Positions 30,192 to 49,640 of a DNA stretch of 64,000 nucleotides are shown here, in pieces (position 1 is the first letter of the stretch; each line of letters begins with the position of its first letter). Below the pieces are notes generated by a model. It was not told where the DNA came from and made no database searches. It worked only from the letters and a program-made list of their open reading frames with translations. Both the position numbers and the translations under genes were made by a program. The stretch is from an uncultured bacterium (GTDB taxonomy: Bacteria; Fidelibacterota; Marinisomatia; Marinisomatales; UBA1611): NCBI GenBank assembly GCA_943788175.1, contig CALSPG010000005.1, forward strand, positions 256,001-320,000. Direction: 5' to 3'.

Positions 30192-31076
30192 TTGTTAAAT
30201 AAAAATATTTTTTACTATTGTCTATTTTTCTTAACCCTCTTTCTAACATCAAGTGGTTTATATTCACAAAATAGGAAATCTTATTTTGATTGTCCCTGCC
30301 CACAAATAATTGCTCACCAGGGATCATCTCTGGAACTGCCTCCAAACACAGTTGAAGCTTTTGAGTTAGCACTAAACCAAGGTGCAGACATAATTGAACT
30401 AGATATTTGGCTAACTAAAGATGAAGAATGGGTAGTTGTGCATGATGAAAACTTATTAAAAATAACGGGAATTAATAAAAATGTTGGTGAATTGACTTTG
30501 TTGGAGATCAATTCTTTAGATGCCGGATATGGTTTTTATAAAAACAATACTGAACGTACAAGCCTCATTGCTAAGCAATATAAAATTCCATCATTAGAAA
30601 AAATTTTTAAAACTTTTTCAGATGAAAGAATTAATATTGAAATCAAAGATTCAAACCTGAGAGGTCTAGTAAGTCTTATTGATTTAATAAATGAATATAA
30701 AATGAGTGATAACATTCTTATTGTATCATCACATTATAACATAATTAAAAAATTTAGAAAGATGACTGCATATCAAATAATTACAGCAGCTTCAAGGAGC
30801 GATATAATAGGTATGATGTATTGGAGTTGGTTACCTTTATATGAACATAAATTTGATGCTTTTCAACTACCATTCTATTCTAAAACTGTGGAAAAATATA
30901 ATATGAATCATGCTTCATGGCTAAAAGACAAACAAGAAAAGCAATTAGAGGTCCATTATTACACATTAGATGATACAACAGATATCAAGCAAGCAATTTT
31001 AATCGGGGCTAATGGGATTATTACTAACAAGCCAAGGGTAGTGTATGATATCCTTAAAAATTTAGGGATGCGTTAG
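30192..31076 (+). CDS. Glycerophosphodiester phosphodiesterase
   Basis: IIAHQG, PPNT, IELDIWLTKD, VVHD, NIEIK, GIITNKP. Confidence 0.9.
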   Translation: MLNKNIFYYCLFFLTLFLTSSGLYSQNRKSYFDCPCPQIIAHQGSSLELPPNTVEAFELALNQGADIIELDIWLTKDEEWVVVHDENLLKITGINKNVGELTLLEINSLDAGYGFYKNNTERTSLIAKQYKIPSLEKIFKTFSDERINIEIKDSNLRGLVSLIDLINEYKMSDNILIVSSHYNIIKKFRKMTAYQIITAASRSDIIGMMYWSWLPLYEHKFDAFQLPFYSKTVEKYNMNHASWLKDKQEKQLEVHYYTLDDTTDIKQAILIGANGIITNKPRVVYDILKNLGMR

Positions 31077-31084
31077 TTAAGCCT

Positions 31085-32194
31085 ATGAATATTAAGTCTA
31101 AGCCTCATGAATCCTACGTTTTCCCTAGAACAAAAAAGGAAATTAGAAATAGATCTGTTTTAGCTGCTATGACAAACAAACAAAGTCACCATGATGGTAC
31201 ATTGTCAGATGAAGAAATTAATTGGCTTACAAGACGAGCAAAAGATGGGTTTGGAATTATAACTACTGCGGCTACGCATGTTTCTAAGAACGGCCAAGGA
31301 TGGGAAGGTGAATTTGGAGTTTATGAAGACTCCTTTATTGATAGGTTAAAAGTTTTAACAGATAGTATTCATGAGCATGATTGTTTGGTTTTCGCTCAAC
31401 TATTTCATGGGGGTATGAGAGCACCAGAAAGATTAACAGGTAATATTCCAATTTCAGCCAGTAAAATTCCTTGTAAGGAATCCTCAACAGGTTATACAAA
31501 ATCTGCTAATCAAAAAGATATAGAAAACATTATATTTGATTTTAAATCTGCTGCAGTCAGGTGTGTGGAAGCAGGATTTGATGGAATCGAACTCCATGGA
31601 GCTCATGGGTATTTGATATCTCAGTTTCTTGGTAAAAAAACTAATCACCGAAATGATATTTGGGGAGGAGACATCCATAATAGATCAAAATTTTTAATAA
31701 ATATTATCGATGAAATTAAAAAATCTGTCCCAGACTCTTTCATTGTTGGAGTCAGAATTTCGCCAGAAGTAAAAGATATGGGAATATTTTTAGACGATAG
31801 TCTAGAGCTTGCGAATATGTTAACAAAGAGTGGAATTGATTTTATTCATTTATCTTGTTGGGATTGTTTTAAAATATCTGATGAATATTCAAAAGACAAA
31901 AAAACAATAACTGAATGGTTTACTCAGACCATTCCAAACTTGCCTACTATAATAAGTACAGGAGGAATTTGGTCATCAAAAGATGCAACTGATGTTATGA
32001 TGCAAGGAGCTGACTTGATTGGTGTAGGTAGAGCAGCAATACCTTACCCAGATTGGAGTCTAAACCTTAAAGATGATAACTACAATCCTCCAAAGATGCC
32101 GTTTACATCAGCGCAGCTAACTAAAGCGGGGTTAAGTGATGTGTTTATTGCTTATATGAAAAATTGGAAAGGATTTGTTGAAGATGAAAAGTGA
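31085..32194 (+). CDS. NADH:flavin oxidoreductase (Old Yellow Enzyme family)
   Basis: QLFHGG, AGFDGIELHGAHGYLISQFL, NHRNDIWGG. Confidence 0.92.
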   Translation: MNIKSKPHESYVFPRTKKEIRNRSVLAAMTNKQSHHDGTLSDEEINWLTRRAKDGFGIITTAATHVSKNGQGWEGEFGVYEDSFIDRLKVLTDSIHEHDCLVFAQLFHGGMRAPERLTGNIPISASKIPCKESSTGYTKSANQKDIENIIFDFKSAAVRCVEAGFDGIELHGAHGYLISQFLGKKTNHRNDIWGGDIHNRSKFLINIIDEIKKSVPDSFIVGVRISPEVKDMGIFLDDSLELANMLTKSGIDFIHLSCWDCFKISDEYSKDKKTITEWFTQTIPNLPTIISTGGIWSSKDATDVMMQGADLIGVGRAAIPYPDWSLNLKDDNYNPPKMPFTSAQLTKAGLSDVFIAYMKNWKGFVEDEK

Positions 32195-33056
32195 TAATAA
32201 TCCATATGCAGATGCATTAAATGGACTTGATCTAAAAGATCCTGTATCAGCATTCTTTAAATTTTGTAGAGAACGTGAACAAATCAGAATAAAAAGGGAA
32301 AAAGGAGAGCCATTCCCTTGGTCACAGGATCAAATATTCCAAAAAGGTAGATTTCTAAATGTGTTTAGAGAAGATGACCGTGTAAGTAAATCTATTATAA
32401 AGTTTGCTGAGGGCCTCGAACAAAATCTGCCAGATTTAGTTCAAGCATTATTTTTTGCAAGATGGTGCAATAAAGGAGTAGTACTTGATGCTATTTCTAA
32501 AGATGTTTTAGCTGATAAAGCACTAATAAAAAATAAAATGATTGCTTTTGACTCCTGGTCAAATAAAACAGCTTATCCAGTAGAAGAAATAGAATGGAAT
32601 GGTAAAAAGTACTCTAGGCTAGAAGCTGCAACAACATTATTTCATGATATTAAAGATTCTTTATGTGAAATAATAAAAAGATCTGCCGGTGATGTAATAG
32701 TTGCTACTCAAGCTGTAAATCATGAGTTTAAAATGAACAATGATTTTCCAATATTTATGGCAGTCATTGACATTGCTTGGTTTCGGCCAGATATTATCAA
32801 GCCGACTAGCCCTGTGCCTACAGGTATTGGGGCGGTCGCATTTTTAGATAGACTTCAAAAATTTCTTGGTACTAAAAGCCATGAGGCAACATGTGATGAG
32901 ATGATTAAACTTCAAAATAGATATTGGCCAAATGCAAAACGTGAGTTTTTACCTATTGATGTTGAATATTTATCTTGTGAATGTCGTAAATATTACAGCT
33001 ATGTAAATGGCACAAAAAGATTTGAAGGTAAAAATATTTTCACTCCACCTACTTAA
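32175..33056 (+). CDS. aGPT-Pplase1 / 5-hmdU DNA kinase helical-domain protein
   Basis: FFKFCREREQIR...PWSQDQIFQKGRFLNVFREDDRVS and C-terminal DVEYLSCECRKY match my recollection of this family. Confidence 0.7.
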   Translation: MLKMKSDNNPYADALNGLDLKDPVSAFFKFCREREQIRIKREKGEPFPWSQDQIFQKGRFLNVFREDDRVSKSIIKFAEGLEQNLPDLVQALFFARWCNKGVVLDAISKDVLADKALIKNKMIAFDSWSNKTAYPVEEIEWNGKKYSRLEAATTLFHDIKDSLCEIIKRSAGDVIVATQAVNHEFKMNNDFPIFMAVIDIAWFRPDIIKPTSPVPTGIGAVAFLDRLQKFLGTKSHEATCDEMIKLQNRYWPNAKREFLPIDVEYLSCECRKYYSYVNGTKRFEGKNIFTPPT

Positions 33057-33071
33057 CTATGAAAGTGGTTT

Positions 33072-34130
33072 TTATTTAATTTTTCGAATGAAGTCAACGG
33101 CTCTTTGTGTGCTTTTTCCATCATTAAAATAAAAGCAATTATTAAGCATTTCATTATACAGGTTTACCAGGTTAGGATTATTTAAGTCCTCTGCTACCAT
33201 ATCACTAATATCAGATTTCTCACCATTATAATTTTTTGCTATAGATAGAACGCTCATTTCTTCTGGCATATTATGAAGCTGGTCGTAGTCATTATTTGCA
33301 ATGATTATAGGTTTTTTTGTAACCAAATATTCATAAATGATTGATGACGTATCACTAATCATCAAATCTGATATGGCAAAATCATTCATTGTGCTATTTT
33401 TAATTATTTTCGCTGGATTCGAAAAATAGACATTTTTATAGCCATTATATTTTGCCCAAAGCTTTAACAGCTTAATCTTCCCTCTATCATGGAAATGAGG
33501 TCTTATAATAAGATTATAATTTTTATCGAGCTCCCTGATAAATTTCTTTCCATATATTTCTAACGTGCCATTGCCCCACTTCCATGTTGGGGCATATAAT
33601 ATATTTTTTCTATCTTTATCTCTTATCTTCAAAAAATCATAATATTTTTCTCTATCAATTCGATCATTGATATAATCATCAAATTTTGGGTAACCAATTT
33701 TGATTAACTTTTCTTCTGGAATATGAATATCCATATCTTTTTGCTTGTGTATGTGTTTAGGTCCTGACACAAAATGGTAATCATATGTTTCTAAAGTATT
33801 TCCAGATCCTCCAAATTTTTTGTCTCCTGCTCCATGGCCAATAAATATTGAAATGGACTTATTTTTATCATGTTTAATTTCTGAATTTGAACCTGATATT
33901 ATTACTCCCTCTAAATCATAAACTTCATTTTTAGGTTTTTTCAATACTTTCGGTGCTTTAAATATTCCACCGCCAGTTATTTCTGTATTTCGGAGATAGT
34001 ACTTAAATCTTAGAGCTCTATTTAATTTATTTACAACAAATACCCCTCCAGTCTTATCGTAAATTGGTTTTGCATGACCATACTGATACACTTGATTGGC
34101 AAAGAAATATATATTATTCATTTCTGGCAA
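33072..34130 (-). CDS. CDP-glycerol glycerophosphotransferase (TagB/TagF) family protein
   Basis: FIGHG, IGYPKFD, ILYAPTW, IIRPH, SDLMISDTSSIIYEY, DGKSTQR. Confidence 0.85.
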   Translation of the reverse strand: MPEMNNIYFFANQVYQYGHAKPIYDKTGGVFVVNKLNRALRFKYYLRNTEITGGGIFKAPKVLKKPKNEVYDLEGVIISGSNSEIKHDKNKSISIFIGHGAGDKKFGGSGNTLETYDYHFVSGPKHIHKQKDMDIHIPEEKLIKIGYPKFDDYINDRIDREKYYDFLKIRDKDRKNILYAPTWKWGNGTLEIYGKKFIRELDKNYNLIIRPHFHDRGKIKLLKLWAKYNGYKNVYFSNPAKIIKNSTMNDFAISDLMISDTSSIIYEYLVTKKPIIIANNDYDQLHNMPEEMSVLSIAKNYNGEKSDISDMVAEDLNNPNLVNLYNEMLNNCFYFNDGKSTQRAVDFIRKIK

Positions 34131-34148
34131 AATTACGTTTAATCGATA

Positions 34149-34871
34149 TTAAATAAACTTTTTAGGATTTTGATTAATAAAATCAAGTGCCTCGGGAGTA
34201 TCAATATCTATCCAAGGGTAACTTTTTATATCTACACTACCCATTAAGCCCTTACTCATTAGTAAATTGCATGCATCGGACAATGAGCACTCATCTTTTT
34301 CTTTAGCTTCTTTTAAATAATCAAAGAATTCGTATTTGCATTTAAAAATACCGCAATCAATTGCATTGTAGTTTGATAATGTTTTAGACATAAAACGTAT
34401 CAAATTTGAATCTTCATCGATCTTTAATTTCATCCCGTCATCAATATCGTGGATCTCATCAATTTTATAGTCAGCCCCTACGCTTGCAATAGTATTACTA
34501 TCTGACTTGTCATTTATGATTTTTAAAATATCACTCGTATAATAATGATCACTCATAGATATCATAAAATCTTCTCCAGTAGGTATATGCTTTTGAGCAG
34601 ATAAAACGCTTACACCATTTGCAAGTTTCCAGTCTGGATTATATGCTACTTCGATTTGGATTGGGGTTTGAAGCGTTTTTAAATGATTTTCAATAATATG
34701 ATTATTGAAGCCAGTTACCACTACGATGTTTTTAATACCAGCATCTATACAATTAGATAATAATTTATTTACAAGAGGTTGCCCCATTACAGGCACCAAA
34801 AGTTTAGGCGTATTATTTGATACGGATGATAGCCTTGAGCCTAAACCTGCAGCTATGATTACTAATTTCAA
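34149..34871 (-). CDS. CTP:inositol-1-phosphate cytidylyltransferase (IPCT)-like NTP transferase
   Basis: AAGLGSRL, NGVSVL, MSDHYY, AIDCGIF, WIDIDT parallel archaeal IPCT motifs. Directly downstream of ino1. Confidence 0.78.
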   Translation of the reverse strand: MKLVIIAAGLGSRLSSVSNNTPKLLVPVMGQPLVNKLLSNCIDAGIKNIVVVTGFNNHIIENHLKTLQTPIQIEVAYNPDWKLANGVSVLSAQKHIPTGEDFMISMSDHYYTSDILKIINDKSDSNTIASVGADYKIDEIHDIDDGMKLKIDEDSNLIRFMSKTLSNYNAIDCGIFKCKYEFFDYLKEAKEKDECSLSDACNLLMSKGLMGSVDIKSYPWIDIDTPEALDFINQNPKKFI

Positions 34872-34886
34872 TTAATACTTTTCTTA

Positions 34887-36173
34887 TTAATCTTGGTCTA
34901 AATGTGTGATAAGCTCTTCGCCCATAATATGACGGAGGGTATTTTTCAGCTTTGCTAGCTGAACAAATATATCATGTTCAGGACCAACATTAGGCCTAGT
35001 CATTGGACTTTTGAAGTAAAAGGATAGCCATTCTTGCACACCAAACATATTAGATTTTTTAGCTAAATCAAGAAATAAAACTAAATCTAAAACTATTGGA
35101 GCCGCTAAAATACTATCTCGACATAGAAAATCAACTTTGATTTGCATAGGGTATCCAAGCCAACCAAATATATCAATATTGTCCCAACCTTCTTTATCGT
35201 CTCCTCTTGGAGGGTAATAATTAATTCTCACTTTATGATAAAGGTCACTATAAAGATCAGGATTTTTTTCTGGTTCTAATATTGTGTCTAGTACACCAAG
35301 TTTACTTTCTTCTTTTGTTTTGAAAGCATCGGGGTCATCCAAGACTTCACCATCCCTGTTACCAAGAATATTAGTTGAGAACCAGCCATTTATTCCAAGT
35401 TGTCTAGCTTTCAAGCCTGGAGCTAATATGGTTTTCATTAGAGTTTGCCCAGTCTTAAAGTCTTTTCCCGCAATTGGAGTTTTTGTGGTTTCAGCTAATT
35501 CGACTAATGCTGGGATATCTGCAGATAAATTTGGTGCGCCATTTGCAAATGGAATACCTAGTTTGATAGCAGCATATGCATATATCATGCTTGGAGATAT
35601 AGCCGGACTATCATTTCGAAGGCCTTCCTCAAATTTATTAATAGATGAGTGAACATCAGATGGCTCAAAATATATTTCTGTGCTTCCACACCAAATCATC
35701 ACGTTAGATGTAATATTATTCTTTTCATTAAATGATTTTATATCATTCATTACTTGTTCAGCCAAGTCCATTTTGGAAGTTCCTGTTTTTATCCAGTTTC
35801 CATCTAAACGACGAACATACTCTTTATCGAAAACAGCTTTAAAAACATTGATATTTTCAAGCTCTGGCTTTAATTGATCTAAAAGAGTTTTGTCTAATAC
35901 TTTAGAGCGGATGCTAACATCGTAAACATTCTCGTTACTTATATCCCAACCGCCAAAAACTAGATTATTCATATCAGCAACAGGTGCAAAATCTTTAATA
36001 ATTGGAGAGCGTTTTTCAGATCTTTTTCCTAACCGGATTGAACCCATTTGGGTCATACTTCCGATTGGTTTTGATAATCCTTTATTACAAGCTAAAACAC
36101 CACAAATAAATGTGCTGGCAACTGCTCCCATTCCTGGAATTAATACTCCGACTTTTGGATTTTCATTGTTCAT
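34887..36173 (-). CDS. ino1: myo-inositol-1-phosphate synthase
   Basis: GMGAVAST, GKDFKTGQT, STNILGNRDG, RDSILAAP, LSFYFKSP. Confidence 0.95.
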   Translation of the reverse strand: MNNENPKVGVLIPGMGAVASTFICGVLACNKGLSKPIGSMTQMGSIRLGKRSEKRSPIIKDFAPVADMNNLVFGGWDISNENVYDVSIRSKVLDKTLLDQLKPELENINVFKAVFDKEYVRRLDGNWIKTGTSKMDLAEQVMNDIKSFNEKNNITSNVMIWCGSTEIYFEPSDVHSSINKFEEGLRNDSPAISPSMIYAYAAIKLGIPFANGAPNLSADIPALVELAETTKTPIAGKDFKTGQTLMKTILAPGLKARQLGINGWFSTNILGNRDGEVLDDPDAFKTKEESKLGVLDTILEPEKNPDLYSDLYHKVRINYYPPRGDDKEGWDNIDIFGWLGYPMQIKVDFLCRDSILAAPIVLDLVLFLDLAKKSNMFGVQEWLSFYFKSPMTRPNVGPEHDIFVQLAKLKNTLRHIMGEELITHLDQD

Positions 36174-36259
36174 ATTTTATTTCTTTATTTGTTAATTATG
36201 ATAAATTATTAATCGATTAATTTAGTAAAAAAAAGGTTAGTTTCTAACTATTCCAATCA

Positions 36260-37369
36260 CTATTTAAACCTATCTGCCCATGTTTTTGTTCTTAAAAGGT
36301 AATAATTATTATCTTGAGGTAGGTAATTTTCATAACTGTAGTCATTTATATTTTTTGGCTTTGCCGGTTCAATTTGCGACCCTTCATGCCACTCATTAAA
36401 TGAAGTTATACCTATGATGTTAGGTTTTGATTTTATCGCGGCATTAAACACGGCATCATAGTATTCCCCCGAATTTCTATCTTTATAATTTTGAGCATTC
36501 CAAGGCCTTATCCTAGTATCAGAATATCCAGGGCCAACGCAAGGTATAAATATTTTATTATTGTTTTTAGCCCAATTTGATAAAAACTGCCAATTTTTGC
36601 TACTAGACCCAAATGTGAATCCATCGCTGGCAAAATAAGTATAAATCCCATCAAAACCTCCATCGATGAAAAAGTCACTTTCATTTTCGTGTACCCATAG
36701 GCCTATTACATACGAATCTACTTTAGTGTCTCTAATTGTATTTAAGCCTTCGGGTTTCAGTATGGATGCCCAGTCATATTTCGATATATGATAGGAATCA
36801 TATACATAAAATAATGGCTTACCTTCAAAACGATAAAACGCACCATGCTTCCCATAAATTTTTATTATATAATTCATCATTTCTACGACCATTTCGGAAG
36901 ATCTGTTATTTATTGGCTCAAGGTGAAAATTGACTTTAATATTTCTAGACTCTGCTATATCCATAATGAGTCTTACATTTTTATCTTCAAATGAGTTTTT
37001 CCCCCACCAAGATAAAGTAACAACTCCAATACCTGATTGCTCAATCATTTGCATATGCTTGGATATAATAGATGTGTCGTTACTACTGTAACAACCTAGT
37101 TCAGGATAAAAGTTCGCTCCGATATCTTCATGACCTAAAAATTTAGGATAATTATCCCAAGTGGTATCAGACCAGTGAGGCAGTACTTCATGGTCCCAAT
37201 GCCTTTGTGTACCATCAATTTCATCATTACCATACCAGGCATAGTAAAACGTATGTAGATTGTAGTTTAAATTCTTTTTTTGCCGTGGCATTATATTTTT
37301 ACAACCAAAAAGAGTGATTAAAAATATAGTAGTAATCTTTAACGAATTGTTTTTTTTATATTTAATCAT
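36260..37369 (-). CDS. GH99 endo-alpha-mannosidase/mannanase, lipoprotein
   Basis: FYYAWYGN, IGANFYPELGCYSS, YTYFAS, ITSFNEWHEG. Lipobox LFGC. Confidence 0.9.
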   Translation of the reverse strand: MIKYKKNNSLKITTIFLITLFGCKNIMPRQKKNLNYNLHTFYYAWYGNDEIDGTQRHWDHEVLPHWSDTTWDNYPKFLGHEDIGANFYPELGCYSSNDTSIISKHMQMIEQSGIGVVTLSWWGKNSFEDKNVRLIMDIAESRNIKVNFHLEPINNRSSEMVVEMMNYIIKIYGKHGAFYRFEGKPLFYVYDSYHISKYDWASILKPEGLNTIRDTKVDSYVIGLWVHENESDFFIDGGFDGIYTYFASDGFTFGSSSKNWQFLSNWAKNNNKIFIPCVGPGYSDTRIRPWNAQNYKDRNSGEYYDAVFNAAIKSKPNIIGITSFNEWHEGSQIEPAKPKNINDYSYENYLPQDNNYYLLRTKTWADRFK

Positions 37370-37448
37370 TATTGTTTAAATAGATATAATTATCATATGA
37401 ATGATAATTAAATAATATAAAAGAAATATTTTTATATACATACTAGCA

Positions 37449-38375
37449 ATGAAAAAAAGAGTATTGTCACTATTATCATCTACCACAGAAATTGTTTATG
37501 CATTAGGCTGTCAAAGTCTTTTGGTCGGTAGATCACATGAATGCGATTATCCGAAATCGGCTTTGAAATTGCCTATATGCACTCAACCTAAATTTAATGT
37601 TAATGGCTCTAGTCGAGAAGTCGATGGTGAGGTAAAGTCAATTCTTCAAAATGCCCTTTCACTTTACAATATTGATGAAAATCTACTAAAAAAGTTAAAA
37701 CCAGATATTATTCTTACACAATCTCAGTGCGAAGTATGTGCTGTTAGTGAAAAAGATGTAATAGCTGTCGTTGAAAATATTACGGGGATTTCGCCATTAA
37801 TTATTTCCGTAAAGCCAAATTGTTTAGAGGATGTTTACAACGATATAATCACAATTGCAGAAGTGCTAGAAGTAAAAAACACAGGTATGGACATAGTCTC
37901 TTCTCTTAAAATGAGGATGAAAAAAACTATAAATTTTATCAATAATGAAGTGTCATTGAGTGTTGCTACTATTGAGTGGATCGATCCATTAATGGCTGCG
38001 GGGAATTGGGTACCCGAAATGATAAAAATGACTGGTGCAAAAAATCTTTTTGGGGAGCCAGGGAAGCATTCGCCTTGGATGAAATATGGCGATCTATTAA
38101 AAAAAGACCCAGAGGTTATTATTATCATGCCTTGTGGATATGATATCCAAAAATCTATTATTGAAATAAAGATGCTATCTAAGAAAAAAGATTGGCAAAA
38201 AATCAGAGCTGTAAAAAATGATAAGGTTTTTATCACAGATGGAAATCAGTATTTTAATAGACCCGGGCCAAGATTAGTGGAAAGTCTAGAAATATTAGTA
38301 GAAATATTGAATTTTAAAGAAAGTAATTTCAAACATAATAACACCGGCTGGATCAAATTCAACACTATTAACTAA
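37449..38375 (+). CDS. TroA/BtuF-like (cobalamin-binding family) substrate-binding protein, no signal peptide
   Basis: RVLSLLSSTTEIVYALG, VGRSHECDYP, EWIDP, FNRPGPRL. Confidence 0.85.
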   Translation: MKKRVLSLLSSTTEIVYALGCQSLLVGRSHECDYPKSALKLPICTQPKFNVNGSSREVDGEVKSILQNALSLYNIDENLLKKLKPDIILTQSQCEVCAVSEKDVIAVVENITGISPLIISVKPNCLEDVYNDIITIAEVLEVKNTGMDIVSSLKMRMKKTINFINNEVSLSVATIEWIDPLMAAGNWVPEMIKMTGAKNLFGEPGKHSPWMKYGDLLKKDPEVIIIMPCGYDIQKSIIEIKMLSKKKDWQKIRAVKNDKVFITDGNQYFNRPGPRLVESLEILVEILNFKESNFKHNNTGWIKFNTIN

Positions 38376-38379
38376 TTAT

Positions 38380-41683: not shown

Positions 41684-41706
41684 GCGAATATATCACCCGA
41701 GCTTTA

Positions 41707-43896: not shown

Positions 43897-45726
43897 ATGA
43901 ATAAATCGATTTATAAACGACTTTACAGCCTGGTTTCTGGATATTGGCCATTTTTAGTAATGTCCTCATTATCAGCATTTATTTATGTTGCATTCAATGG
44001 ACTATCTGTGTGGCTAACAGCTACTTTATTTAATAATATTTTAACTGATTTTGATGAGTTGCTCAAGAGTCAAATTTTATTATCTGAATCAAAAGACAGT
44101 TTAAATGGACAGTTAAAATTCTGGACAAATGAATTAATTCTTAGAGATACCGCGATTGAATCTCTTCGTGTTTTGTGTTACACATTAATTGGTTCATTTT
44201 TGATTAAAAACTTTTTTCTTTATATAAAGAATATCGCTCTTACATATATTCAGTTTAACCTTATCAAAAAGTTACGAGCTCAATTATATGCTCATTTACA
44301 ATCCATGTCATTATCTTTTTTTGATAAAAGGCAAACGGGCGAGCTTTCATCTATTGTTATTAACGATGTCTCAAATATGCGAGTAGCATTTGGGACTAGT
44401 TTCCATAAACTGTTCGTTGAGCCGATTAATATTATTGTTTTTATAGCGTTGCTATTTATAATCAATGTTAAACTAGCATTGTTATCAATTGTTATCGTTC
44501 CTCTAACAGGCGTAGTGGTAGTAATAATAGGTAAGAGTATCCGAAGGCGATCAAAAAGAACCGCTGAAAAAATTGCAAGAATAATGGGTATAATGAGTGA
44601 AAATCTTAATTCAATTAGAATCGTAAAGTCTTTCGCTATGGAAGCCTTTGAAACTAATCGATTTGAGAAAGAACAAGACCGGCATTATGCTCTAGATTTG
44701 AGGCAAGCGAAACTCCGTCTAATTTCATCTCCTATTACCGAAATGATTGGCGCTTTCATTGCTGTTATTCTTCTTTGGATTGGTGGTCATGATGTCCTGG
44801 TATCTAATGATATGAGTTCAGAAGACTTTATTCGATTTATTTTAATCCTTTTTAGCGTATTGCAGCCTATACGCTCTCTGAGTAATGTGAGTATTAATTT
44901 ACAAAAGGGCTTCGCTTCAGCTGATAGAGTATTTGATGTGTTAGATACGCAACCTTCAATAGTATCAAAACCCAATGCAATGAAAATCGATGATGTGAAT
45001 GAACAGATTACGTTTAAAAACGTTGGTTTTAATTATGAAGGAACTAAAAATATTTTGGAAAATATTTCTTTTTCTTTGAAAAAAGGAACAGTTACTGCTT
45101 TAGTTGGTGCTAGTGGAGCAGGTAAATCAACTATCGCTGATTTGATACCAAGGTTTTACGACGTTGTTGATGGTAAAATAGAAATTGATGGAATTGATAT
45201 CAAAAATCTGGATATTAATGCTCTGCGAAAAATGATGGGTATTGTTTCTCAGGAGACAATACTTTTTAATGATACCATTGGTGGAAATATTAAATACGGC
45301 CTCCGGAATGTAAATGACCAGCAATTAAAAAATGCTGCTAAAAATGCAAATGCCTTAGATTTTATTTTAGAGCAACCTAATGGTTTTGAAACGATGATAG
45401 GTGAAAAAGGTGTCAGGCTTTCTGGTGGTCAAAGGCAACGAATTGCTATTGCTAGAGCTATTTTAAAAAATCCTTCTATACTCATTTTAGATGAAGCTAC
45501 ATCCTCTTTAGATACTGAGTCTGAATATTTAGTTCAAAAAGCTATAGATAATCTTCTGGTTGATAGAACGGTATTGGTCATTGCTCATAGGCTTACTACT
45601 GTAGAGAATGCCGATACTATTATTGTGATGAAAGATGGCCAAATAGTAGATCTTGGTTCTCATGACGACTTGCTTAAAAAAGATGGATTGTACACCCGAT
45701 TATATAAAAAACAGTTCAAAAAATAA
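43897..45726 (+). CDS. msbA: MsbA-like ABC transporter (permease plus ATPase)
   Basis: TM domain plus GASGAGKS, LSGGQRQR, ILDEATS. Clustered with a GT9 gene. Confidence 0.8.
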   Translation: MNKSIYKRLYSLVSGYWPFLVMSSLSAFIYVAFNGLSVWLTATLFNNILTDFDELLKSQILLSESKDSLNGQLKFWTNELILRDTAIESLRVLCYTLIGSFLIKNFFLYIKNIALTYIQFNLIKKLRAQLYAHLQSMSLSFFDKRQTGELSSIVINDVSNMRVAFGTSFHKLFVEPINIIVFIALLFIINVKLALLSIVIVPLTGVVVVIIGKSIRRRSKRTAEKIARIMGIMSENLNSIRIVKSFAMEAFETNRFEKEQDRHYALDLRQAKLRLISSPITEMIGAFIAVILLWIGGHDVLVSNDMSSEDFIRFILILFSVLQPIRSLSNVSINLQKGFASADRVFDVLDTQPSIVSKPNAMKIDDVNEQITFKNVGFNYEGTKNILENISFSLKKGTVTALVGASGAGKSTIADLIPRFYDVVDGKIEIDGIDIKNLDINALRKMMGIVSQETILFNDTIGGNIKYGLRNVNDQQLKNAAKNANALDFILEQPNGFETMIGEKGVRLSGGQRQRIAIARAILKNPSILILDEATSSLDTESEYLVQKAIDNLLVDRTVLVIAHRLTTVENADTIIVMKDGQIVDLGSHDDLLKKDGLYTRLYKKQFKK

Positions 45727-45732
45727 TATTAA

Positions 45733-46857
45733 ATGAAGCCTCAAATTTCCATTTTGTTTGATGCTTATCATTTATATCATCTTGCCCAATTTGAGCCTTT
45801 AATGACTCTATTAGAAAAAGATGATAGGTTCGATGTTTATTATTCTACTTCAAGTGAAAACAGGAAAGATGAAATTGAACTATGCTCGTCTATTTTATTA
45901 AAGAGGAAAGGCCAGTTTGTTTTTCATAAAGATGAAAATATTCGGTGTGAGAAAATAAAAGATATTGGGCTCGATGTTTTTATTTGTGGTTGGTCTAGAT
46001 ATGATATTCATAATTATGTTAATGATAATACTCTTGTTGCAATGATCTACCATGGAATAGGTGTAAAACCTTCTTATTGGAATGATAATCATTCGAGGCT
46101 AGACCTTAGGTTTGTTGAAGGTGAATACAGGATAAATCAACTGAGAGAAAATGGGGTTAGTACAGATCTTTCATTGACAGGATATATAAAACTTGATCCA
46201 TTATTCAACAATGAAGCTTCTTCTTTTGAAGATAAAAAAAAAATGCTTGGTTTAAATAAATCTAGACCAACTATTTTATATGCTCCCACTTTTTACCCTA
46301 GCTCATTAGAAAAATTGGGAATGCAATTGGGTCATCTCACTAAAGAATATAATTTAATTATTAAACCACACATGTGGACCTATTATCTTGATAGCTTTGG
46401 AGGGGTAAATCTTAAAGGGCAAAGAAAATTAATTTATAATTTATCGGAAAAATTTGATCATGTAAAATTGTTGAGCCCGGATGAACATAATATTATACCC
46501 TATTATTCAATTTCAGATCTTTTATTAACCGAAGCGAGCAGTACCATATATGAGATGATTGCATTATCCAAACCAGTAGTAGTAAATAGGTTTTATCATT
46601 TAAAATTATCACACAGAATTTTTCAAAAAAGATTATATAAGCGAAGATTAAATCAAGAAATGAATGATGAAGTCAAAAACTTTTGCTTCTTGGCTGATAA
46701 TATCAAGCAATTGCCGTTTGTCTTAGATGAGGCCATAAAGCATAAGCATAAAGATATTGTTTCAATGCGAGAATATCAGAAAAAGATGCTATATAAGCTT
46801 GACGGTCAAGCCTCTAATAGGGCGAGAGATGAAATATTAAGAAGGTTAAAAAATTAA
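45733..46857 (+). CDS. CDP-glycerol glycerophosphotransferase (TagB/F) family protein
   Basis: IYHGIG, TGYIKLD, ILYAPTF, IIKPH, SDLLLTEASS, DGQASNR. Confidence 0.8.
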   Translation: MKPQISILFDAYHLYHLAQFEPLMTLLEKDDRFDVYYSTSSENRKDEIELCSSILLKRKGQFVFHKDENIRCEKIKDIGLDVFICGWSRYDIHNYVNDNTLVAMIYHGIGVKPSYWNDNHSRLDLRFVEGEYRINQLRENGVSTDLSLTGYIKLDPLFNNEASSFEDKKKMLGLNKSRPTILYAPTFYPSSLEKLGMQLGHLTKEYNLIIKPHMWTYYLDSFGGVNLKGQRKLIYNLSEKFDHVKLLSPDEHNIIPYYSISDLLLTEASSTIYEMIALSKPVVVNRFYHLKLSHRIFQKRLYKRRLNQEMNDEVKNFCFLADNIKQLPFVLDEAIKHKHKDIVSMREYQKKMLYKLDGQASNRARDEILRRLKN

Positions 46858-46862
46858 TATTT

Positions 46863-47948
46863 ATGATAAAAATACTCTTCGAAACACATCACCTTTATTA
46901 TTTACCAAACTTTGAACCAATTATTAATGAATTAAAAAAGAGAGGTAATTATGATGTCAATATATCTATGCCTCAATATATTAATGAAAGTGAAAAGGTC
47001 TTATTCCAATCCGCATGTAAGCTGTTGAAATTAAATATTATTTCTAGTCAAGATGAAGAATCAAGAATCGAGAAAATCATTTCCTCTAAATTTGATGTTA
47101 TTATTGTGGGTAACGTAGGTCAATTAAATAAGATAGTTTCAGAATCAACAATTGCTGTTATGGTCTACCACGGTATTGGCCTTAAACAATCTTACTACAA
47201 AGATATTGACGATAGGATTAATATTAGAGCTGTTGAGTCAAAGTCCAGACTAAATAAACTAATTGAGCAAGGACAAAAAAATCTTGCTCTTACTGGCTTT
47301 ACCAAGTTAGATCCGCTTTATTTATCAAGTGAAAAAGAAGACCATCATCTAAAAAGTGAACTTGGTATAAATAATGATTTTCCAATTATTCTTTATGCCC
47401 CGACATTCTATCCGACATCATTCGAAAATATATATCAAGAATTAGAGTTTATATCTTCTGAATATAATATATTGATTAAACTTCATAATTTTTCGTGGTT
47501 CCAGAGCCGTTATTCTTATCAGAGTAATCTTGCAACTAAAATAGCATTAAAAAATGAAAATATACATTTACTACCCAGCAATGTCTTTAACATTATTCCA
47601 TATTATAAAATTTCAGATGTTTTAATAAGTGATATATCGTCCACAATATTCGAGTTCTTGCCTTTAAATAGACCAATAATTCAGGTTGAATGTTTAAAGC
47701 TCCGATTCAGGCACAGAATTTTTAATAAAAGGTTTAAAAGAAAGTTGGATCTTAACAGGATGCAAGAGTTAGATTTTGTCTACAAAGTAGAATCGCCTTC
47801 AGAACTTCATAGATGTATTGTTTTTTCTTCAGATCATCCTGAAGAGATGTCAAAGTTAAGAGAAGAGGCTCATGATTATTACCTACTTAATAATAATGGA
47901 AAGTCATCAATAATGCTAATTGAAGAAATAGAAAAATCCTTGGCATAA
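46863..47948 (+). CDS. CDP-glycerol glycerophosphotransferase (TagB/F) family protein, tandem paralog
   Basis: VYHGIG, TGFTKLD, ILYAPTF, IKLH, SDVLISDISS. Confidence 0.8.
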   Translation: MIKILFETHHLYYLPNFEPIINELKKRGNYDVNISMPQYINESEKVLFQSACKLLKLNIISSQDEESRIEKIISSKFDVIIVGNVGQLNKIVSESTIAVMVYHGIGLKQSYYKDIDDRINIRAVESKSRLNKLIEQGQKNLALTGFTKLDPLYLSSEKEDHHLKSELGINNDFPIILYAPTFYPTSFENIYQELEFISSEYNILIKLHNFSWFQSRYSYQSNLATKIALKNENIHLLPSNVFNIIPYYKISDVLISDISSTIFEFLPLNRPIIQVECLKLRFRHRIFNKRFKRKLDLNRMQELDFVYKVESPSELHRCIVFSSDHPEEMSKLREEAHDYYLLNNNGKSSIMLIEEIEKSLA

Positions 47949-47949
47949 A

Positions 47950-48909
47950 ATGAAAATTGCAGTCTATAGTCCGAATTGGGTTGGCGATGCGGCCTTATCT
48001 CTTCCTTTTGTTTACCATATTAAACAAAAATATCCAAACTCTGAATTGATTATTATTTGTAAAGAATGGGTGCAGTCTGTTTATCAAAATAACCCAAATA
48101 TTGATAAAATCATTAGTATTGCGGTTACTGAATCTCGTGGAATAACTAATACATTTCGGTTAGGTTTTTTGTTGCGTAAAGAAAAAATTGAAATTTTTTA
48201 TACCCTCACAGATTCATTTAGAAGTTCTTTTGTGCTTTGGCTGTCAAAATCAAAAAAGCGGATTGGATATAACTCTCAAGGACGAGGGTTTTTTTTGACT
48301 TCAAAAGTAAAATTACCTTTAAAAAAAATCCATCGATATAAAAAATATTTAAAACTAATTGAAAAAGATGATATACCAATTGAACAGACTCTAATTTATT
48401 TTAAGAAAGAAGAAGTTGAATGGGCCAAACATGAAATCGAGGAAATTGGAATTAAAAATCCGGTTGGCCTTTTCCCATTCAGTGTTTCTGAAACAAGGAC
48501 GTTTCCAAATGAAAAAATTTCTGAATGGTTAAATGGTTCAAAAGAGAATTTTTTAATATTTGGAGCAAAAAATGATGGACAAAAAGCTAATGTAATAATA
48601 AATGAAAATAAAAATATTTCTATAGTGTCACTTTGTGGTAAGTACAGCTTAAGGCAAAGTATGGCTTTGATTTCTCTATGTAAATATGCTTTAGCCGCTG
48701 ATAGTGGTTTGGGACATATTTCATCAATAATAAAAGTCCCGACGATATCTTTTTTTGGCGCGAATAGAGCTTTTGTAACCAAGCCTCTTGGTAAGAGTTG
48801 TGTAGTCATAGATCAAAGTAATCGATGCAGTCCATGTAAAAAAAATATTTGTTGTCTTAAATCAATCCATAAGGATGATGTAAATTCGAGCATTAATTCG
48901 TTGATATAA
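47950..48909 (+). CDS. waaF: GT9 LPS heptosyltransferase II-like
   Basis: PNWVGDA, DSFRSS, DSGLGHIS, C-terminal CSPC...C. Confidence 0.82.
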   Translation: MKIAVYSPNWVGDAALSLPFVYHIKQKYPNSELIIICKEWVQSVYQNNPNIDKIISIAVTESRGITNTFRLGFLLRKEKIEIFYTLTDSFRSSFVLWLSKSKKRIGYNSQGRGFFLTSKVKLPLKKIHRYKKYLKLIEKDDIPIEQTLIYFKKEEVEWAKHEIEEIGIKNPVGLFPFSVSETRTFPNEKISEWLNGSKENFLIFGAKNDGQKANVIINENKNISIVSLCGKYSLRQSMALISLCKYALAADSGLGHISSIIKVPTISFFGANRAFVTKPLGKSCVVIDQSNRCSPCKKNICCLKSIHKDDVNSSINSLI

Positions 48910-48929
48910 GACTTATAATTTGAGGTGAT

Positions 48930-49640
48930 ATGAAAGCATTTATTTTAGCAGCAGGTGTATCCAGGAGACTTTATCCTGAAACGTATAATACTCCAAAATG
49001 TCTTTTAGATGTTGGAGGGAAGCCAATTATTAATTATCAATTAGAAGCGCTTGAAAATATTGGAATTCAAGATGTGACAATGATTATAGGATATCATCGT
49101 GAAATGTTAGTCAACCACGTAACAAAGCAATTTCCAAAACTGAAGTTTGATTTTATTGTAAACAATCATTATTTTGAAACAAACACTGCTTATTCAGTCT
49201 ACCTAGGTCGGAAAAAACTTGTTACTGATAATCATATTTTAATGAACGCCGATGTAATATACCCACCTGAACTCATAACGAGAATTAATGACTCTTCACA
49301 TGAAACAGTCCTTGCCGTGGACATTAAAAAATGCGGAAGAGAAGAAGTCAAAGTGATTGAAGGGAGTAACTTTAAAATAAGAGCCATAGGAAAAGAACTA
49401 ATTGAAGAACAATGTTTAGGTGAATTTCTTGGCGTGGCTAAATTCTCTTTAGCGTTTAATCATTTATTTTCTGAGTCATTGTCAAAATTAATAAATGCTG
49501 GAGGAAAGTCTGATTATTTTGAGGCTGGTATTGAATCTCTTTTAAGTAAAACGGATGTCTTTTATAGTGATGTGTCTGACCTACCATGCCTTGAAATTGA
49601 TTTTTTAGAGGATTTAAATGAAGCTCGTAAATTATTTTAA
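48930..49640 (+). CDS. Phosphocholine cytidylyltransferase (LicC)-like NTP transferase
   Basis: ILAAGVSRRL, PKCLL, TNTAYS, NADV, GEFLGV, EIDFLED. Confidence 0.8.
   Translation: MKAFILAAGVSRRLYPETYNTPKCLLDVGGKPIINYQLEALENIGIQDVTMIIGYHREMLVNHVTKQFPKLKFDFIVNNHYFETNTAYSVYLGRKKLVTDNHILMNADVIYPPELITRINDSSHETVLAVDIKKCGREEVKVIEGSNFKIRAIGKELIEEQCLGEFLGVAKFSLAFNHLFSESLSKLINAGGKSDYFEAGIESLLSKTDVFYSDVSDLPCLEIDFLEDLNEARKLF

What the first reader, a model, noticed from the sequence alone, without database searches (positions are those of the whole stretch)
33072..36173. ino1 - IPCT - TagF-like operon: candidate CDP-inositol pathway to an inositol-phosphate surface polymer or decoration
Established: Ino1 makes inositol-1-P and IPCT makes CDP-inositol, normally consumed by the membrane CDP-alcohol phosphotransferase DIPPS to make di-myo-inositol phosphate. 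TagB/F enzymes transfer polyol-phosphate from CDP-glycerol or CDP-ribitol. Seen: three tightly linked genes (gaps under 20 nt) in which a soluble TagF-family enzyme takes the place of DIPPS. Inference: a CDP-inositol:glycan inositol-phosphotransferase or teichoic-acid-like poly(inositol-phosphate) polymerase, an activity I do not know to be described.
Basis: partly seen in the sequence, partly recalled or inferred. Interest (0 to 1): 0.82.

Follow-up and report, generated by a model that had tools for sequence, protein, structure and literature searches.

The report
Inositol-phosphate transfer genes linked to LPS
A marine SAR406-type bacterium carries a tightly packed three-gene set that probably makes activated inositol phosphate and attaches it to a cell-surface glycolipid, a chemistry not yet described for this enzyme family.

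Summary
On the minus strand lie ino1 (36173..34887), an NTP transferase (34871..34149) and a TagF-like gene (34121..33072), separated by 15 and 27 nt.

A profile of the NTP transferase family ranks the three solved inositol-1-phosphate cytidylyltransferases first. Its fold model does the same. The TagF-like model matches TagF best and keeps the family's invariant histidines.

The triad is conserved. It is complete in 48 of 58 assessable metagenome loci. In 16 of the 17 sampled genomes of the phylum that hold both genes, ino1 and the TagF-like gene lie within 3.5 kb.

No DIPPS or PIP synthase was found in this genome.

In distant relatives the triad sits inside an operon of this kind: MsbA, ino1, IPCT, TagF-like x2-3, GT9, and a LicC-like NTP transferase, with GT2, GT4 and methyltransferase genes interleaved. 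This window holds the detached remainder of that operon at 43897-49640.

Best reading (about 0.5): CDP-inositol-dependent transfer of inositol phosphate onto an LPS-core-type glycolipid.

Caveats:
- No biochemistry exists.
- Some orthologous pairs lack ino1.
- Single transfer versus polymerisation is unresolved.

I file it as a new variant of a known kind.

The parts
34887..36173 (-). ino1: myo-inositol-1-phosphate synthase (MIPS), 428 aa
   Evidence: PF07994 6.3e-98 and PF01658 2.9e-32. Orthologues of 64-99% identity lie directly upstream of the NTP transferase in related loci.
34149..34871 (-). NTP1: IPCT-like cytidylyltransferase, 240 aa, TTG start; predicted CTP:inositol-1-phosphate cytidylyltransferase
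   Evidence: PF00483 2.4e-18. The family profile A3 ranks the IPCTs first: 2xme 7.7e-27, 4mnd 4.5e-26, 4jd0 6e-23, then ST0452 7e-19. AF2 model pLDDT 94.4. Foldseek top hits are 4jd0 (7.9e-19, TMq 0.85) and 2xme. R13, K23 and D108 are invariant in 30 sequences.
33072..34121 (-). TagF1: TagF/TagB-family phosphotransferase, catalytic GT-B core only, 349 aa (TTG at 34130 is an alternative start); predicted CDP-inositol-dependent inositol-phosphate transferase
   Evidence: PF04464 3.7e-23. AF2 pLDDT 89.8. Foldseek top hit is TagF 3l7k at 1.6e-13, followed by the capsule multienzymes 8qoy and 8a0m and by TarL 8va1. H96 and H209 are invariant in A1 and across paralogues in A2. It forms its own clade of 20 rows, SH-aLRT 99.
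43897..45726 (+). MsbA-like ABC exporter, first gene of the partner operon
   Evidence: PF00664 plus PF00005. TIGR02203 MsbA 7.2e-149, 496.9 bits, below the cut-off of 602. It is the best MsbA match in the genome, the next scoring 363.5 bits. In relatives it lies directly upstream of ino1 (L016, L019, L034, L095, L100).
45733..46857 (+). TagF2: second TagF-like paralogue, 374 aa
   Evidence: PF04464 7.5e-08. It falls in a clade separate from TagF1 and keeps the invariant His, APT and SDxSS columns.
46863..47948 (+). TagF3: third TagF-like paralogue, 361 aa
   Evidence: PF04464 5.3e-16. Orthologues lie directly downstream of TagF1 in L017, L019, L093, L095 and L099.
47950..48909 (+). GT9 glycosyltransferase (LPS heptosyltransferase II-like), 319 aa
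   Evidence: PF01075 5.8e-26. TIGR02195 3.3e-37, 128.4 bits against a cut-off of 134.6.
48930..49640 (+). NTP2: LicC-like cytidylyltransferase, 236 aa; substrate unknown
   Evidence: PF12804 and PF00483. The family profile A4 ranks LicC 1jyk (6.4e-31) and PntC-AEPT 6pd1 (2.3e-29) first; IPCTs reach only 3e-12 to 6e-11. It is separate from NTP1 in the tree.

Best explanation
The three genes form one pathway. Ino1 converts glucose-6-phosphate to inositol phosphate (established chemistry of the family). The IPCT-like NTP1 activates it with CTP to CDP-inositol (inferred). The soluble TagF-like enzyme TagF1 then transfers inositol phosphate from CDP-inositol to a hydroxyl of a lipid-anchored glycan, releasing CMP (inferred, by analogy with TagB/TagF chemistry). 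The most likely acceptor is the LPS core, or a lipid A-core-type glycolipid, assembled on the cytoplasmic face of the inner membrane and then flipped by MsbA. It would act together with the partner operon at 43897-49640: MsbA, two more TagF-like enzymes, a GT9 transferase and a LicC-like cytidylyltransferase for a second phospho-alcohol. In this genome the triad has been separated from that operon by about 7.7 kb and inverted. Shown here: gene identities, folds, conservation and synteny. Inferred: donor, acceptor, cellular location, and whether one unit or a chain is added.
For: Gene identities. IPCT assignment: the NTP1 family profile ranks the three solved IPCTs first with a margin of at least 4 orders of magnitude in E-value. 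The neighbouring paralogue NTP2, used as a control, ranks LicC first and the IPCTs 13th or lower. The fold model ranks 4jd0 and 2xme first. R13, K23 and D108 are invariant, consistent with the R16/K26/D112 named for the T. maritima enzyme in PMC12275187 (passages read). TagF assignment. Linkage: 48 of 58 assessable metagenome loci carry full-length ino1, and 58 of 58 carry NTP1 next to TagF1. In a sample of 201 genomes of the phylum, all 15 genomes with a TagF1 hit of 50% identity or more have ino1. In 16 of the 17 genomes with both, the two lie on one contig within 3.5 kb. No rival consumer was found: the three PF01066 genes of this genome look like pgsA (beside pgpA), a pgsA-like gene (beside kdtA) and pssA (beside psd), with no PIP synthase or DIPPS (genome 92% complete). 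Envelope-glycolipid context: L019 and L083 read MsbA, UDP-GlcNAc 2-epimerase, ino1, NTP1, TagF1, TagF3, GT9, NTP2. L095 reads MsbA, ino1, NTP1, GT2, methyltransferase, TagF1, TagF3, GT9, NTP2. L034 and L017 add GT4 and GT9 genes. Of 30 assessable metagenome loci with TagF1 identity under 58%, 28 carry MsbA, GT9, another TagF-like gene or NTP2. This genome also has kdtA, a second GT9 and a gmhA-like gene. Contigs from RNA libraries of two studies bridge both intergenic junctions of the triad.
Against: There is no biochemical or chemical evidence. My searches found no paper describing CDP-inositol use by a TagF-family enzyme or inositol phosphate on LPS. In this window and in its closer relatives (28 assessable loci with TagF1 identity of 58% or more) the triad stands apart from any LPS gene, so the LPS link rests on more distant relatives. 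NTP1-TagF1 pairs exist without ino1: 10 of 58 metagenome loci lack it, among them L093, which otherwise matches the ino1-bearing L095. PF07994 was not found in 3 of 3 Desulfobacterales and 2 of 2 Sabulitectum genomes that carry TagF1-clade genes (completeness not given), nor in G154, G196 or the TCS56 genome. In two Calditrichaceae genomes ino1 lies beside a PIP-synthase-like gene on another contig. The mapping of H96 and H209 onto the TagF catalytic histidines was not checked by residue-level superposition. The RNA evidence consists of assembled contigs, which do not prove a single transcript or exclude carried-over DNA.
Confidence: 0.5

Rival explanations
1. A small soluble phosphodiester solute. 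TagF1 would be a soluble stand-in for DIPPS or GPI synthase. It would join inositol phosphate to a small alcohol (inositol-P or glycerol), or transfer another CDP-activated alcohol onto inositol-P, giving an osmolyte or piezolyte of the di-myo-inositol-phosphate or glycerophosphoinositol kind.
For: TagF1 has no membrane-spanning segment in its sequence and is only the 349-aa catalytic core. In this window and its closer relatives the triad stands alone, with a glycerophosphodiester phosphodiesterase gene (GDPD, 30192-31076) conserved close by. The organism is marine.
Against: In the more distant loci the triad is interleaved with MsbA, GT9, GT2, GT4, methyltransferase and further TagF-like genes. 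That is not expected for solute synthesis. From my own knowledge, known TagF-family acceptors are lipid-linked glycans or polymers. No phosphatase gene is conserved beside the triad.
Confidence: 0.12
2. An inositol membrane lipid. TagF1 would transfer inositol phosphate from CDP-inositol to diacylglycerol or ceramide at the membrane surface. That would give phosphatidylinositol or an inositol-phosphoceramide and replace the CDP-alcohol phosphatidyltransferase of other lineages.
For: Within the phylum the two partners of ino1 largely exclude each other. Of the 48 genomes with ino1, 31 lack TagF1. In the 3 of those that I annotated (L031, L032, L033), a PIP-synthase-like gene lies beside ino1. 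A Kennedy-type route through CDP-inositol has been proposed, not proven, for Bacteroidetes (PMC9246714, passages read). MsbA also flips phospholipids (my own knowledge).
Against: No TagF-family enzyme is known to act on DAG or ceramide (my own knowledge; two searches found none). Co-clustering with GT9, GT2, GT4 and two more TagF-like genes fits a glycan acceptor better. Calditrichaceae keep both an ino1 with a PIP-synthase-like gene and an NTP1-TagF1 pair, which suggests different products.
Confidence: 0.12
3. The donor is not CDP-inositol. NTP1 and TagF1 would handle another phospho-alcohol (for example glycerol phosphate). Ino1 would be linked for another reason, such as supplying inositol phosphate as an acceptor or as a glycan building block.
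For: Intact NTP1-TagF1 pairs occur in loci and genomes without ino1. With the single sequence, NTP1's best PDB and NCBIfam hits were sugar-1-phosphate nucleotidyltransferases rather than IPCT. Source annotations for homologues are mostly 'choline kinase'.
Against: With a family profile the three IPCT structures rank first, while the control paralogue ranks LicC first. The fold search agrees. The ino1-NTP1 gap has a median of 21 nt over 48 loci. In two ino1-less genomes the NTP gene beside TagF1 is split or truncated, as expected if the loss of ino1 makes it useless (L036, L037).
Confidence: 0.15
4. A free or capsule-type poly(inositol phosphate) or mixed teichoic-acid-like polymer, not attached to LPS core.
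For: Three TagF-like paralogues and two cytidylyltransferases resemble multi-enzyme teichoic-acid and TagF-like capsule systems. One Desulfobacterales locus carries a Wzi-like gene.
Against: No capsule or teichoic-acid export genes were seen in the loci I annotated: no KpsMT- or TagGH-type two-component ABC, and no Wza or Wzc. What was seen is MsbA and GT9. TagF1 lacks the additional domains of the known polymerases.
Confidence: 0.08

Closest known systems
IPCT/DIPPS pathway for di-myo-inositol phosphate in (hyper)thermophiles (Archaeoglobus fulgidus 2xme and 4mnd; Thermotoga maritima 4jd0)
   Same: MIPS plus a cytidylyltransferase whose nearest solved relatives, by profile and by fold, are exactly these IPCTs.
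   Different: No CDP-alcohol phosphotransferase (DIPPS) domain is fused or adjacent. No longer fused form was found, and the genome's three PF01066 genes look like pgsA, a pgsA-like gene and pssA. A soluble GT-B TagF-like enzyme takes that place. The host is a mesophilic marine bacterium, and the context is envelope glycan genes.
TagB/TagF/TarF/TarL teichoic-acid phosphotransferases and TagF-like capsule polymerase domains (3l7k, 8va1, 8qoy, 8a0m)
   Same: The Pfam family, the GT-B fold and the conserved His, APT and SDxSS columns. The predicted chemistry is CDP-alcohol to a phosphodiester bond plus CMP.
   Different: The predicted donor is CDP-inositol, not CDP-glycerol or CDP-ribitol. It has only the 349-aa catalytic core. 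It occurs in a diderm, beside MsbA and GT9 rather than TagO/TagA/TagGH or group 2 capsule genes. It scores far below the NCBIfam cut-offs for TarL and TarF (35 bits against 1000 and 550).
Putative alternative inositol-lipid cluster of Bacteroides/Prevotella (MIPS, NTP transferase, CDP-alcohol phosphatidyltransferase, HAD; Heaver et al. 2022, PMC9246714, passages read)
   Same: MIPS next to an NTP transferase proposed to make CDP-inositol.
   Different: The consumer there is a membrane CDP-alcohol phosphatidyltransferase plus a HAD hydrolase, proposed to make lipids. Here it is a TagF-like enzyme, with no such genes adjacent. That paper also reports traces of MIPS-dependent inositol in the B. 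thetaiotaomicron capsule, with no enzyme assigned.
lic1-type phosphocholine decoration of lipooligosaccharide (LicA, LicC, LicD; recalled from my own knowledge)
   Same: A cytidylyltransferase activates a phospho-alcohol that is then placed on LOS or LPS. NTP2 is LicC-like, and the Desulfobacterales relatives carry LicD in the same cluster.
   Different: The transferases here are TagF-like. LicD and choline kinase were not found in this genome (92% complete).
CpgD, CDP-glycerate synthase for ceramide diphosphoglycerate in Caulobacter (PMC12275187, passages read)
   Same: An IPCT-like (COG1213-type) cytidylyltransferase adapted to a new phospho-alcohol for an anionic envelope lipid.
   Different: The substrate is different, the partner transferase (CpgA) is uncharacterised, and PF04464 did not hit the Caulobacter control genome.

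Membership tests
Myo-inositol-1-phosphate synthase (Ino1/MIPS) | Both Pfam MIPS domains over the gathering score | tested here: met
   PF07994 328.6 bits (cut-off 25) and PF01658 111.5 bits (cut-off 27).
CTP:inositol-1-phosphate cytidylyltransferase (IPCT) | NTP_transferase fold, with IPCTs as the nearest solved relatives | tested here: met
   Profile A3: 2xme 7.7e-27, 4mnd 4.5e-26, 4jd0 6e-23, against the next hit at 7e-19. Foldseek: 4jd0 and 2xme rank 1 and 2. The control paralogue profile A4 ranks LicC first.
CTP:inositol-1-phosphate cytidylyltransferase (IPCT) | Active-site Arg, Lys and Asp (R16, K26, D112 of the T. maritima enzyme, as cited in PMC12275187) | tested here: inconclusive
   R13, K23 and D108 are invariant in 30 family members with matching spacing. 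The equivalence was judged from motif position, not from a residue-level alignment to 4jd0.
CTP:inositol-1-phosphate cytidylyltransferase (IPCT) | Genomic linkage to MIPS | tested here: met
   The gap here is 15 nt. In 48 of 58 assessable metagenome loci the median gap is 21 nt. It is not universal: 10 of 58 lack ino1.
CTP:inositol-1-phosphate cytidylyltransferase (IPCT) | Forms CDP-inositol from CTP and inositol-1-phosphate | not testable with these tools
   An enzyme assay is needed.
TagB/TagF (Glyphos_transf, PF04464) | Pfam model over the gathering score and a TagF-type GT-B fold | tested here: met
   82.5 bits against 22.1. Foldseek top hits are TagF chains at 1.6e-13, TMq 0.67.
TagB/TagF (Glyphos_transf, PF04464) | Two catalytic or diphosphate-binding histidines (H444 and H584 of S. 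epidermidis TagF; numbering recalled) | tested here: inconclusive
   H96 and H209 are invariant in 34 TagF1 orthologues and in 8 paralogues. Their equivalence to the TagF residues was not checked by superposition.
TagB/TagF (Glyphos_transf, PF04464) | The donor is CDP-glycerol or CDP-ribitol | not testable with these tools
   The context predicts CDP-inositol instead. An assay is needed.
Teichoic-acid polymerases proper (TagF, TarL) | A long protein with domains beyond the catalytic core; NCBIfam equivalog score | tested here: not met
   349 aa. TarL model 35.4 bits against a cut-off of 1000; TarF model 34.4 against 550. Only residues 132-282 align to TarL 347-497 of 583.
DIPPS / PIP synthase (CDP-alcohol phosphotransferase, PF01066) | A membrane CDP-OH_P_transf domain fused to or beside IPCT or MIPS | tested here: not met
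   None is in the triad. The three PF01066 genes of the genome lie elsewhere and match pgsA and pssA best. No fused longer form was found (weak evidence).
Bacteroidetes alternative inositol-lipid cluster (Heaver 2022) | [quoted passage not shown] | tested here: not met
   Only the first two are present. The neighbours are TagF-like, GH99 and an HMUDK_hel gene.
LPS core assembly cluster | Co-location with lipid A-core genes (MsbA, GT9, HldE, WaaY) | tested here: inconclusive
   Met in distant relatives. In this window the partner operon lies 7.7 kb away on the other strand. All NCBIfam scores for MsbA and the heptosyltransferase are below their cut-offs.

The most novel reading that the evidence does not exclude
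SAR406/Marinimicrobia and some neighbouring phyla build a teichoic-acid-like, phosphodiester-linked chain directly on their lipid A-core. Three TagF-like transferases, an IPCT and a LicC-like cytidylyltransferase would add inositol phosphate and a second phospho-alcohol. The product would be exported by MsbA. CDP-inositol would then be a new donor for the TagF family, and inositol phosphate a new component of LPS.
Probability: 0.15. Interest if true: 0.85.

Novelty: new variant of a known kind. Interest (0 to 1): 0.62.

Why it matters
If true, three things follow. It would extend the donor range of TagF-type phosphotransferases to CDP-inositol. It would give CDP-inositol a role outside thermophile solutes and lipids. 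It would also predict an unusual anionic, inositol-bearing outer-membrane glycolipid in one of the most abundant uncultured bacterial groups of the dark ocean, which bears on surface charge, phage and grazer recognition, and phosphorus budgets. The prediction can be tested directly with three recombinant proteins.

Tried and rejected
- Promoter and terminator scan of 32800-37600: 20 promoter-like sites against 26.8 expected and 1 terminator-like site against 2.2 expected. Uninformative in this AT-rich DNA.
- Search for fused forms of TagF1 (612-2000 aa): none found. The tool itself calls this weak evidence.
- Single-sequence PDB and NCBIfam searches with NTP1 did not separate IPCT from sugar-1-phosphate transferases. 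Only the family profile did.
- The 359-aa gene upstream of NTP1 in Sabulitectum (L014:3228-4307), tested as a possible substitute for ino1: no Pfam or NCBIfam family, no PDB relative, and only weak beta-propeller-like atlas leads. Dropped.
- The HMUDK_hel neighbour (32175-33056): no PDB relative. The atlas shows a family common in phages. No role assigned.
- The careful tree of the TagF paralogues did not finish in 300 s, so a quick IQ-TREE with SH-aLRT support was used instead.
- GH99 upstream (86-nt gap) was considered as a fourth operon member. Rejected because it is present only in close relatives and carries a lipoprotein-like N-terminus.
- Supplementary tables of PMC9246714 (species distribution of the clusters) could not be seen. 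They might list TagF-like neighbours of MIPS.


Full report
**1. The observation**

The minus strand of the window carries three co-directional ORFs (sequence).

| Gene | Coordinates | Size | Family evidence |
|---|---|---|---|
| ino1 | 36173..34887 | 428 aa | PF07994 6.3e-98; PF01658 2.9e-32 |
| NTP transferase (NTP1) | 34871..34149 | 240 aa, TTG start | PF00483 2.4e-18 |
| TagF-like (TagF1) | 34130 or 34121..33072 | 349 aa from the ATG | PF04464 3.7e-23, over the gathering score |

The gaps are 15 nt and 18 nt. The second gap is 27 nt with the ATG at 34121, which fits the conserved N-terminus of the orthologues.

The genome is a 2.27-Mb, roughly 33% G+C assembly, 92% complete. Its relatives are named Marinimicrobia, Neomarinimicrobiota or Fidelibacterota in public records.

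**2. What the three proteins are**

ino1 is an unambiguous MIPS.

NTP1 was ambiguous as a single sequence. NCBIfam gave an archaeal GlmU-type model at 2e-25 and the IPCT/DIPPS model at 7.4e-24, both far below their cut-offs. PDB gave ST0452 at 1.7e-14 and A. fulgidus IPCT at 1.5e-11.

I then aligned 30 family members, chosen from the 120 listed plus loci (A3), and used the profile.
- The top three PDB hits are the three solved inositol-1-phosphate cytidylyltransferases, all full length: 2xme 7.7e-27, 4mnd 4.5e-26, 4jd0 6e-23. The next hit is at 7e-19.
- As a control I did the same with the paralogue NTP2 (11 sequences, A4). It ranks LicC (1jyk, 6.4e-31) and the phosphonate cytidylyltransferase 6pd1 first, and the IPCTs only at 3e-12 to 6e-11.
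- An AF2 model of NTP1 (pLDDT 94.4) has 4jd0 and 2xme as its best Foldseek matches.
- R13, K23 and D108 are invariant. A paper I read in passages names R16, K26 and D112 as the active-site residues of the T. maritima enzyme (PMC12275187). I inferred the equivalence from motif position and did not align it residue by residue.

TagF1 gives an AF2 model of pLDDT 89.8.
- Its best Foldseek matches are chains of the teichoic-acid polymerase TagF (3l7k, 1.6e-13, TMq 0.67). Next come the TagF-like domains of two capsule multienzymes (8qoy, 8a0m) and TarL (8va1).
- H96, A177-P178, H209, D252, S259 and E264 are invariant across TagF1 and seven paralogues.
- It is only the catalytic GT-B core. It scores far below the NCBIfam cut-offs for TarL and TarF.

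**3. Is there a DIPPS elsewhere?**

The genome has three CDP-alcohol phosphatidyltransferase genes.
- One matches pgsA over its cut-off and lies beside pgpA.
- One is pgsA-like and lies beside kdtA and ftsY.
- One matches pssA and lies beside psd.

None scores as a PIP synthase or DIPPS. So, within a 92%-complete genome, NTP1 is the only evident consumer of the Ino1 product.

**4. Conservation**

Genome loci. A scan of genome contigs returned 22 loci. Of these, 17 have at least 2.1 kb upstream of the TagF1 match, and 11 of the 17 carry the full triad.

The other six are:
- L007, which holds only the last 92 codons of ino1;
- two Sabulitectum loci;
- three Desulfobacterales loci.

Metagenome loci. 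A scan with alignment A1 kept 80 loci, of which 58 are assessable.
- 58 of 58 have an NTP1 homologue.
- 48 of 58 have a full-length ino1.
- 43 of 58 have all three genes directly adjacent.
- The 10 without ino1 all have TagF1 identity under 53%.

Genome sample. In a sample of 201 genomes of the phylum, TagF1 (E of 1e-20 or better) is in 39, ino1 in 48, and both in 17.
- In 16 of those 17 the two genes lie on one contig within 3.5 kb.
- All 15 genomes with a TagF1 hit of 50% identity or more have ino1.
- Of the 24 genomes with weaker hits, 22 lack ino1 (overlaps counted by hand from the two tables).

The 31 genomes with ino1 but no TagF1 are mostly one family (22 of them). In the three I annotated, ino1 lies beside a PIP-synthase-like gene (L031, L032, L033, scores below cut-offs).

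**5. Context: what the product is attached to**

In the more distant loci the triad lies inside a larger operon.

| Locus | Gene order |
|---|---|
| L019 (= L083) | MsbA-like ABC, UDP-GlcNAc 2-epimerase, ino1, NTP1, TagF1, TagF3, GT9, NTP2, then citrate synthase |
| L095 | MsbA, ino1, NTP1, GT2, methyltransferase, TagF1, TagF3, GT9, NTP2, DUF1015, citrate synthase |
| L034 | MsbA, ino1, NTP1, GT4, GT9, TagF1, NTP2, TagF2, TagF |
| L017 | GT4, GT9, ino1, NTP1, three TagF-like genes, GT9 |
| Desulfobacterales loci | TagF1-clade genes with HldE, LicD, a WaaY-GT9 fusion, GT2 and a Wzi-like gene |

Of 30 assessable metagenome loci with TagF1 identity under 58%, 28 carry MsbA, GT9, NTP2 or another TagF-like gene.

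The present window contains the same partner genes 7.7 kb away on the plus strand.

| Gene | Coordinates |
|---|---|
| MsbA-like | 43897-45726 |
| TagF2 | 45733-46857 |
| TagF3 | 46863-47948 |
| GT9 | 47950-48909 |
| NTP2 | 48930-49640 |
| DUF1015 | 49662-50912 |
| ORF with a citrate-synthase domain | from 50932 |

This MsbA-like gene is the best MsbA match in the genome.

The simplest history is that the triad was detached from this operon and inverted in the lineage of the window. The close relatives L004, L005 and L012 share the detached state.

The genome also has kdtA, a second GT9 and a gmhA-like gene, so it makes LPS-type glycolipid.

A quick tree of 36 TagF-like sequences that I chose from the loci puts TagF1 orthologues in one clade (20 rows, SH-aLRT 99), apart from TagF2 and TagF3. 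The careful search did not finish.

**6. Mechanism proposed**

- Ino1 makes inositol phosphate (established family chemistry).
- NTP1 makes CDP-inositol (inferred from profile, fold and linkage).
- TagF1 transfers inositol phosphate to a sugar hydroxyl of a lipid-anchored oligosaccharide on the cytoplasmic face, releasing CMP (inferred from the family mechanism).
- The glycolipid, most likely lipid A-core, also receives sugars from GT9, GT2 or GT4 enzymes and a second phospho-alcohol through NTP2 with TagF2 or TagF3. MsbA then flips it (inferred from synteny).
- Whether TagF1 adds one unit or a chain cannot be told. Its small size resembles the single-addition enzymes more than the polymerases.

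**7. Evidence against, and limits**

- The LPS link rests on distant relatives. The 28 assessable loci closest to the window show the triad alone.
- NTP1-TagF1 pairs persist without ino1.
  - L093 is like L095 but runs from MsbA straight into NTP1.
  - L118 keeps only a 32-codon remnant of ino1.
- In the NTP tree (89 sequences cut to 59 by removing those at least 88% identical with the same label), the ino1-less rows are of two kinds. Some are recent twins of ino1-linked rows. The others form two deeper clades, one Sabulitectum-like and one Calditrichota-like.
- PF07994 was not found in 5 of 5 Desulfobacterales and Sabulitectum genomes (completeness not given). It was also not found in G154 (95% complete), G196 (94%) or the TCS56 genome.
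- In G154 and G196 the NTP gene beside TagF1 is split or truncated. That fits decay after loss of ino1, but these are MAGs.
- The two Calditrichaceae genomes have ino1 beside a PIP-synthase-like gene on another contig.
- So the inositol assignment is well supported for the Marinimicrobia triad but not for the whole TagF1 clade.

**8. Expression**

Assembled contigs from RNA libraries cover the triad.
- X15 record 4 (33099-35597) and X19 record 29 (33813-35552, a related strain with 44 differing letters) bridge both junctions.
- X16 record 14 (34121-36420) bridges NTP1/ino1 and runs into GH99.
- X15 and X16 come from one study and X19 from another.
- Contigs do not prove one transcript or exclude DNA carry-over.

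**9. Literature**

| Search terms | Papers found |
|---|---|
| 'CDP-inositol' with 'TagF' | 2 |
| 'CDP-inositol' with 'teichoic acid' | 3 |
| 'CDP-inositol' with 'lipopolysaccharide' and 'inositol phosphate' | 1 |
| 'inositol phosphate' with 'TagF-like' | 0 |
| 'inositol phosphate', 'repeating unit', 'capsular polysaccharide', 'CDP-glycerol' (at least 3 of 4) | 25 |
| 'CDP-inositol' since 2019 | 7 |
| 'Marinimicrobia' with 'inositol' | 8 |

From their listings, and from the passages I read in PMC9246714 and PMC12275187, none describes a TagF-family enzyme using CDP-inositol or inositol phosphate on LPS. Papers from subscription journals are not in the library, and supplements were closed.

**10. 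Verdict**

The feature is real, conserved and probably expressed. It is a new variant of a known kind (TagF-type phosphotransferase chemistry with a predicted new donor and a new setting) and is supported only in silico. Confidence in the full mechanism is about 0.5. Interest is 0.62.

Noticed in passing
window 32175-33056 (+); also L009:7041-7913 and L054, L055, L057-L059, L061, L062, L070: A stand-alone HMUDK_hel protein (PF18723, 4.2e-18) lies next to TagF1. The family is common in marine phages. It is convergent with TagF1 in the window's lineage. In a lineage with about 62% TagF1 identity it is co-directional and abuts or overlaps the TagF1 stop, with a 4-nt overlap in L009. Its role is unknown, and it may be a fourth member of the unit in some lineages.
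   Followed up: partly
window 30192-32194 (+): A glycerophosphodiester phosphodiesterase (GDPD, 1.2e-29) and an Old-Yellow-Enzyme-type flavin oxidoreductase lie convergent to the triad. They are syntenic in the close relatives. A GDPD could act on inositol-phosphodiester products.
   Followed up: no
window 36260-37369 (-): A GH99 endo-alpha-mannosidase-like gene (7.7e-137) with a lipoprotein-like N-terminus lies 86 nt upstream of ino1. It is found only in close relatives.
   Followed up: partly
window 50932-54450 (+): A single 1172-aa ORF combines a citrate synthase domain (residues 42-371) with an M14 carboxypeptidase domain (540-820). In L019, L093 and L095 citrate synthase is a separate ORF of about 423-433 aa. 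This may be a real fusion or an assembly or frameshift effect.
   Followed up: no
window 39213-42447 (+): Pieces of a SusC/TonB-dependent receptor (CarboxypepD_reg, Plug and barrel) are spread over several short consecutive ORFs. This suggests a disrupted receptor gene or sequencing frameshifts.
   Followed up: no
G000 contig C4:1-6000 (L121) against window 35848-41853: An 8.8-kb contig of the same assembly is a 98.3%-identical copy of this part of the window. It starts inside ino1. This is strain-level redundancy in the MAG, not a second locus.
   Followed up: yes
L002 (G000:C1:135392-138856): A second pgsA-like CDP-alcohol phosphatidyltransferase (96.7 bits, below the pgsA cut-off of 109.1) lies between kdtA and ftsY, just downstream of the genome's other GT9 gene. 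Its substrate is unknown.
   Followed up: no
L007:2002-2301; L118:206-301; L036:382-1290; L037:5977-6258: There are signs of decay of the pathway in some relatives: ino1 reduced to a C-terminal or 32-codon remnant, and the NTP gene split or truncated beside an intact TagF1-like gene.
   Followed up: partly
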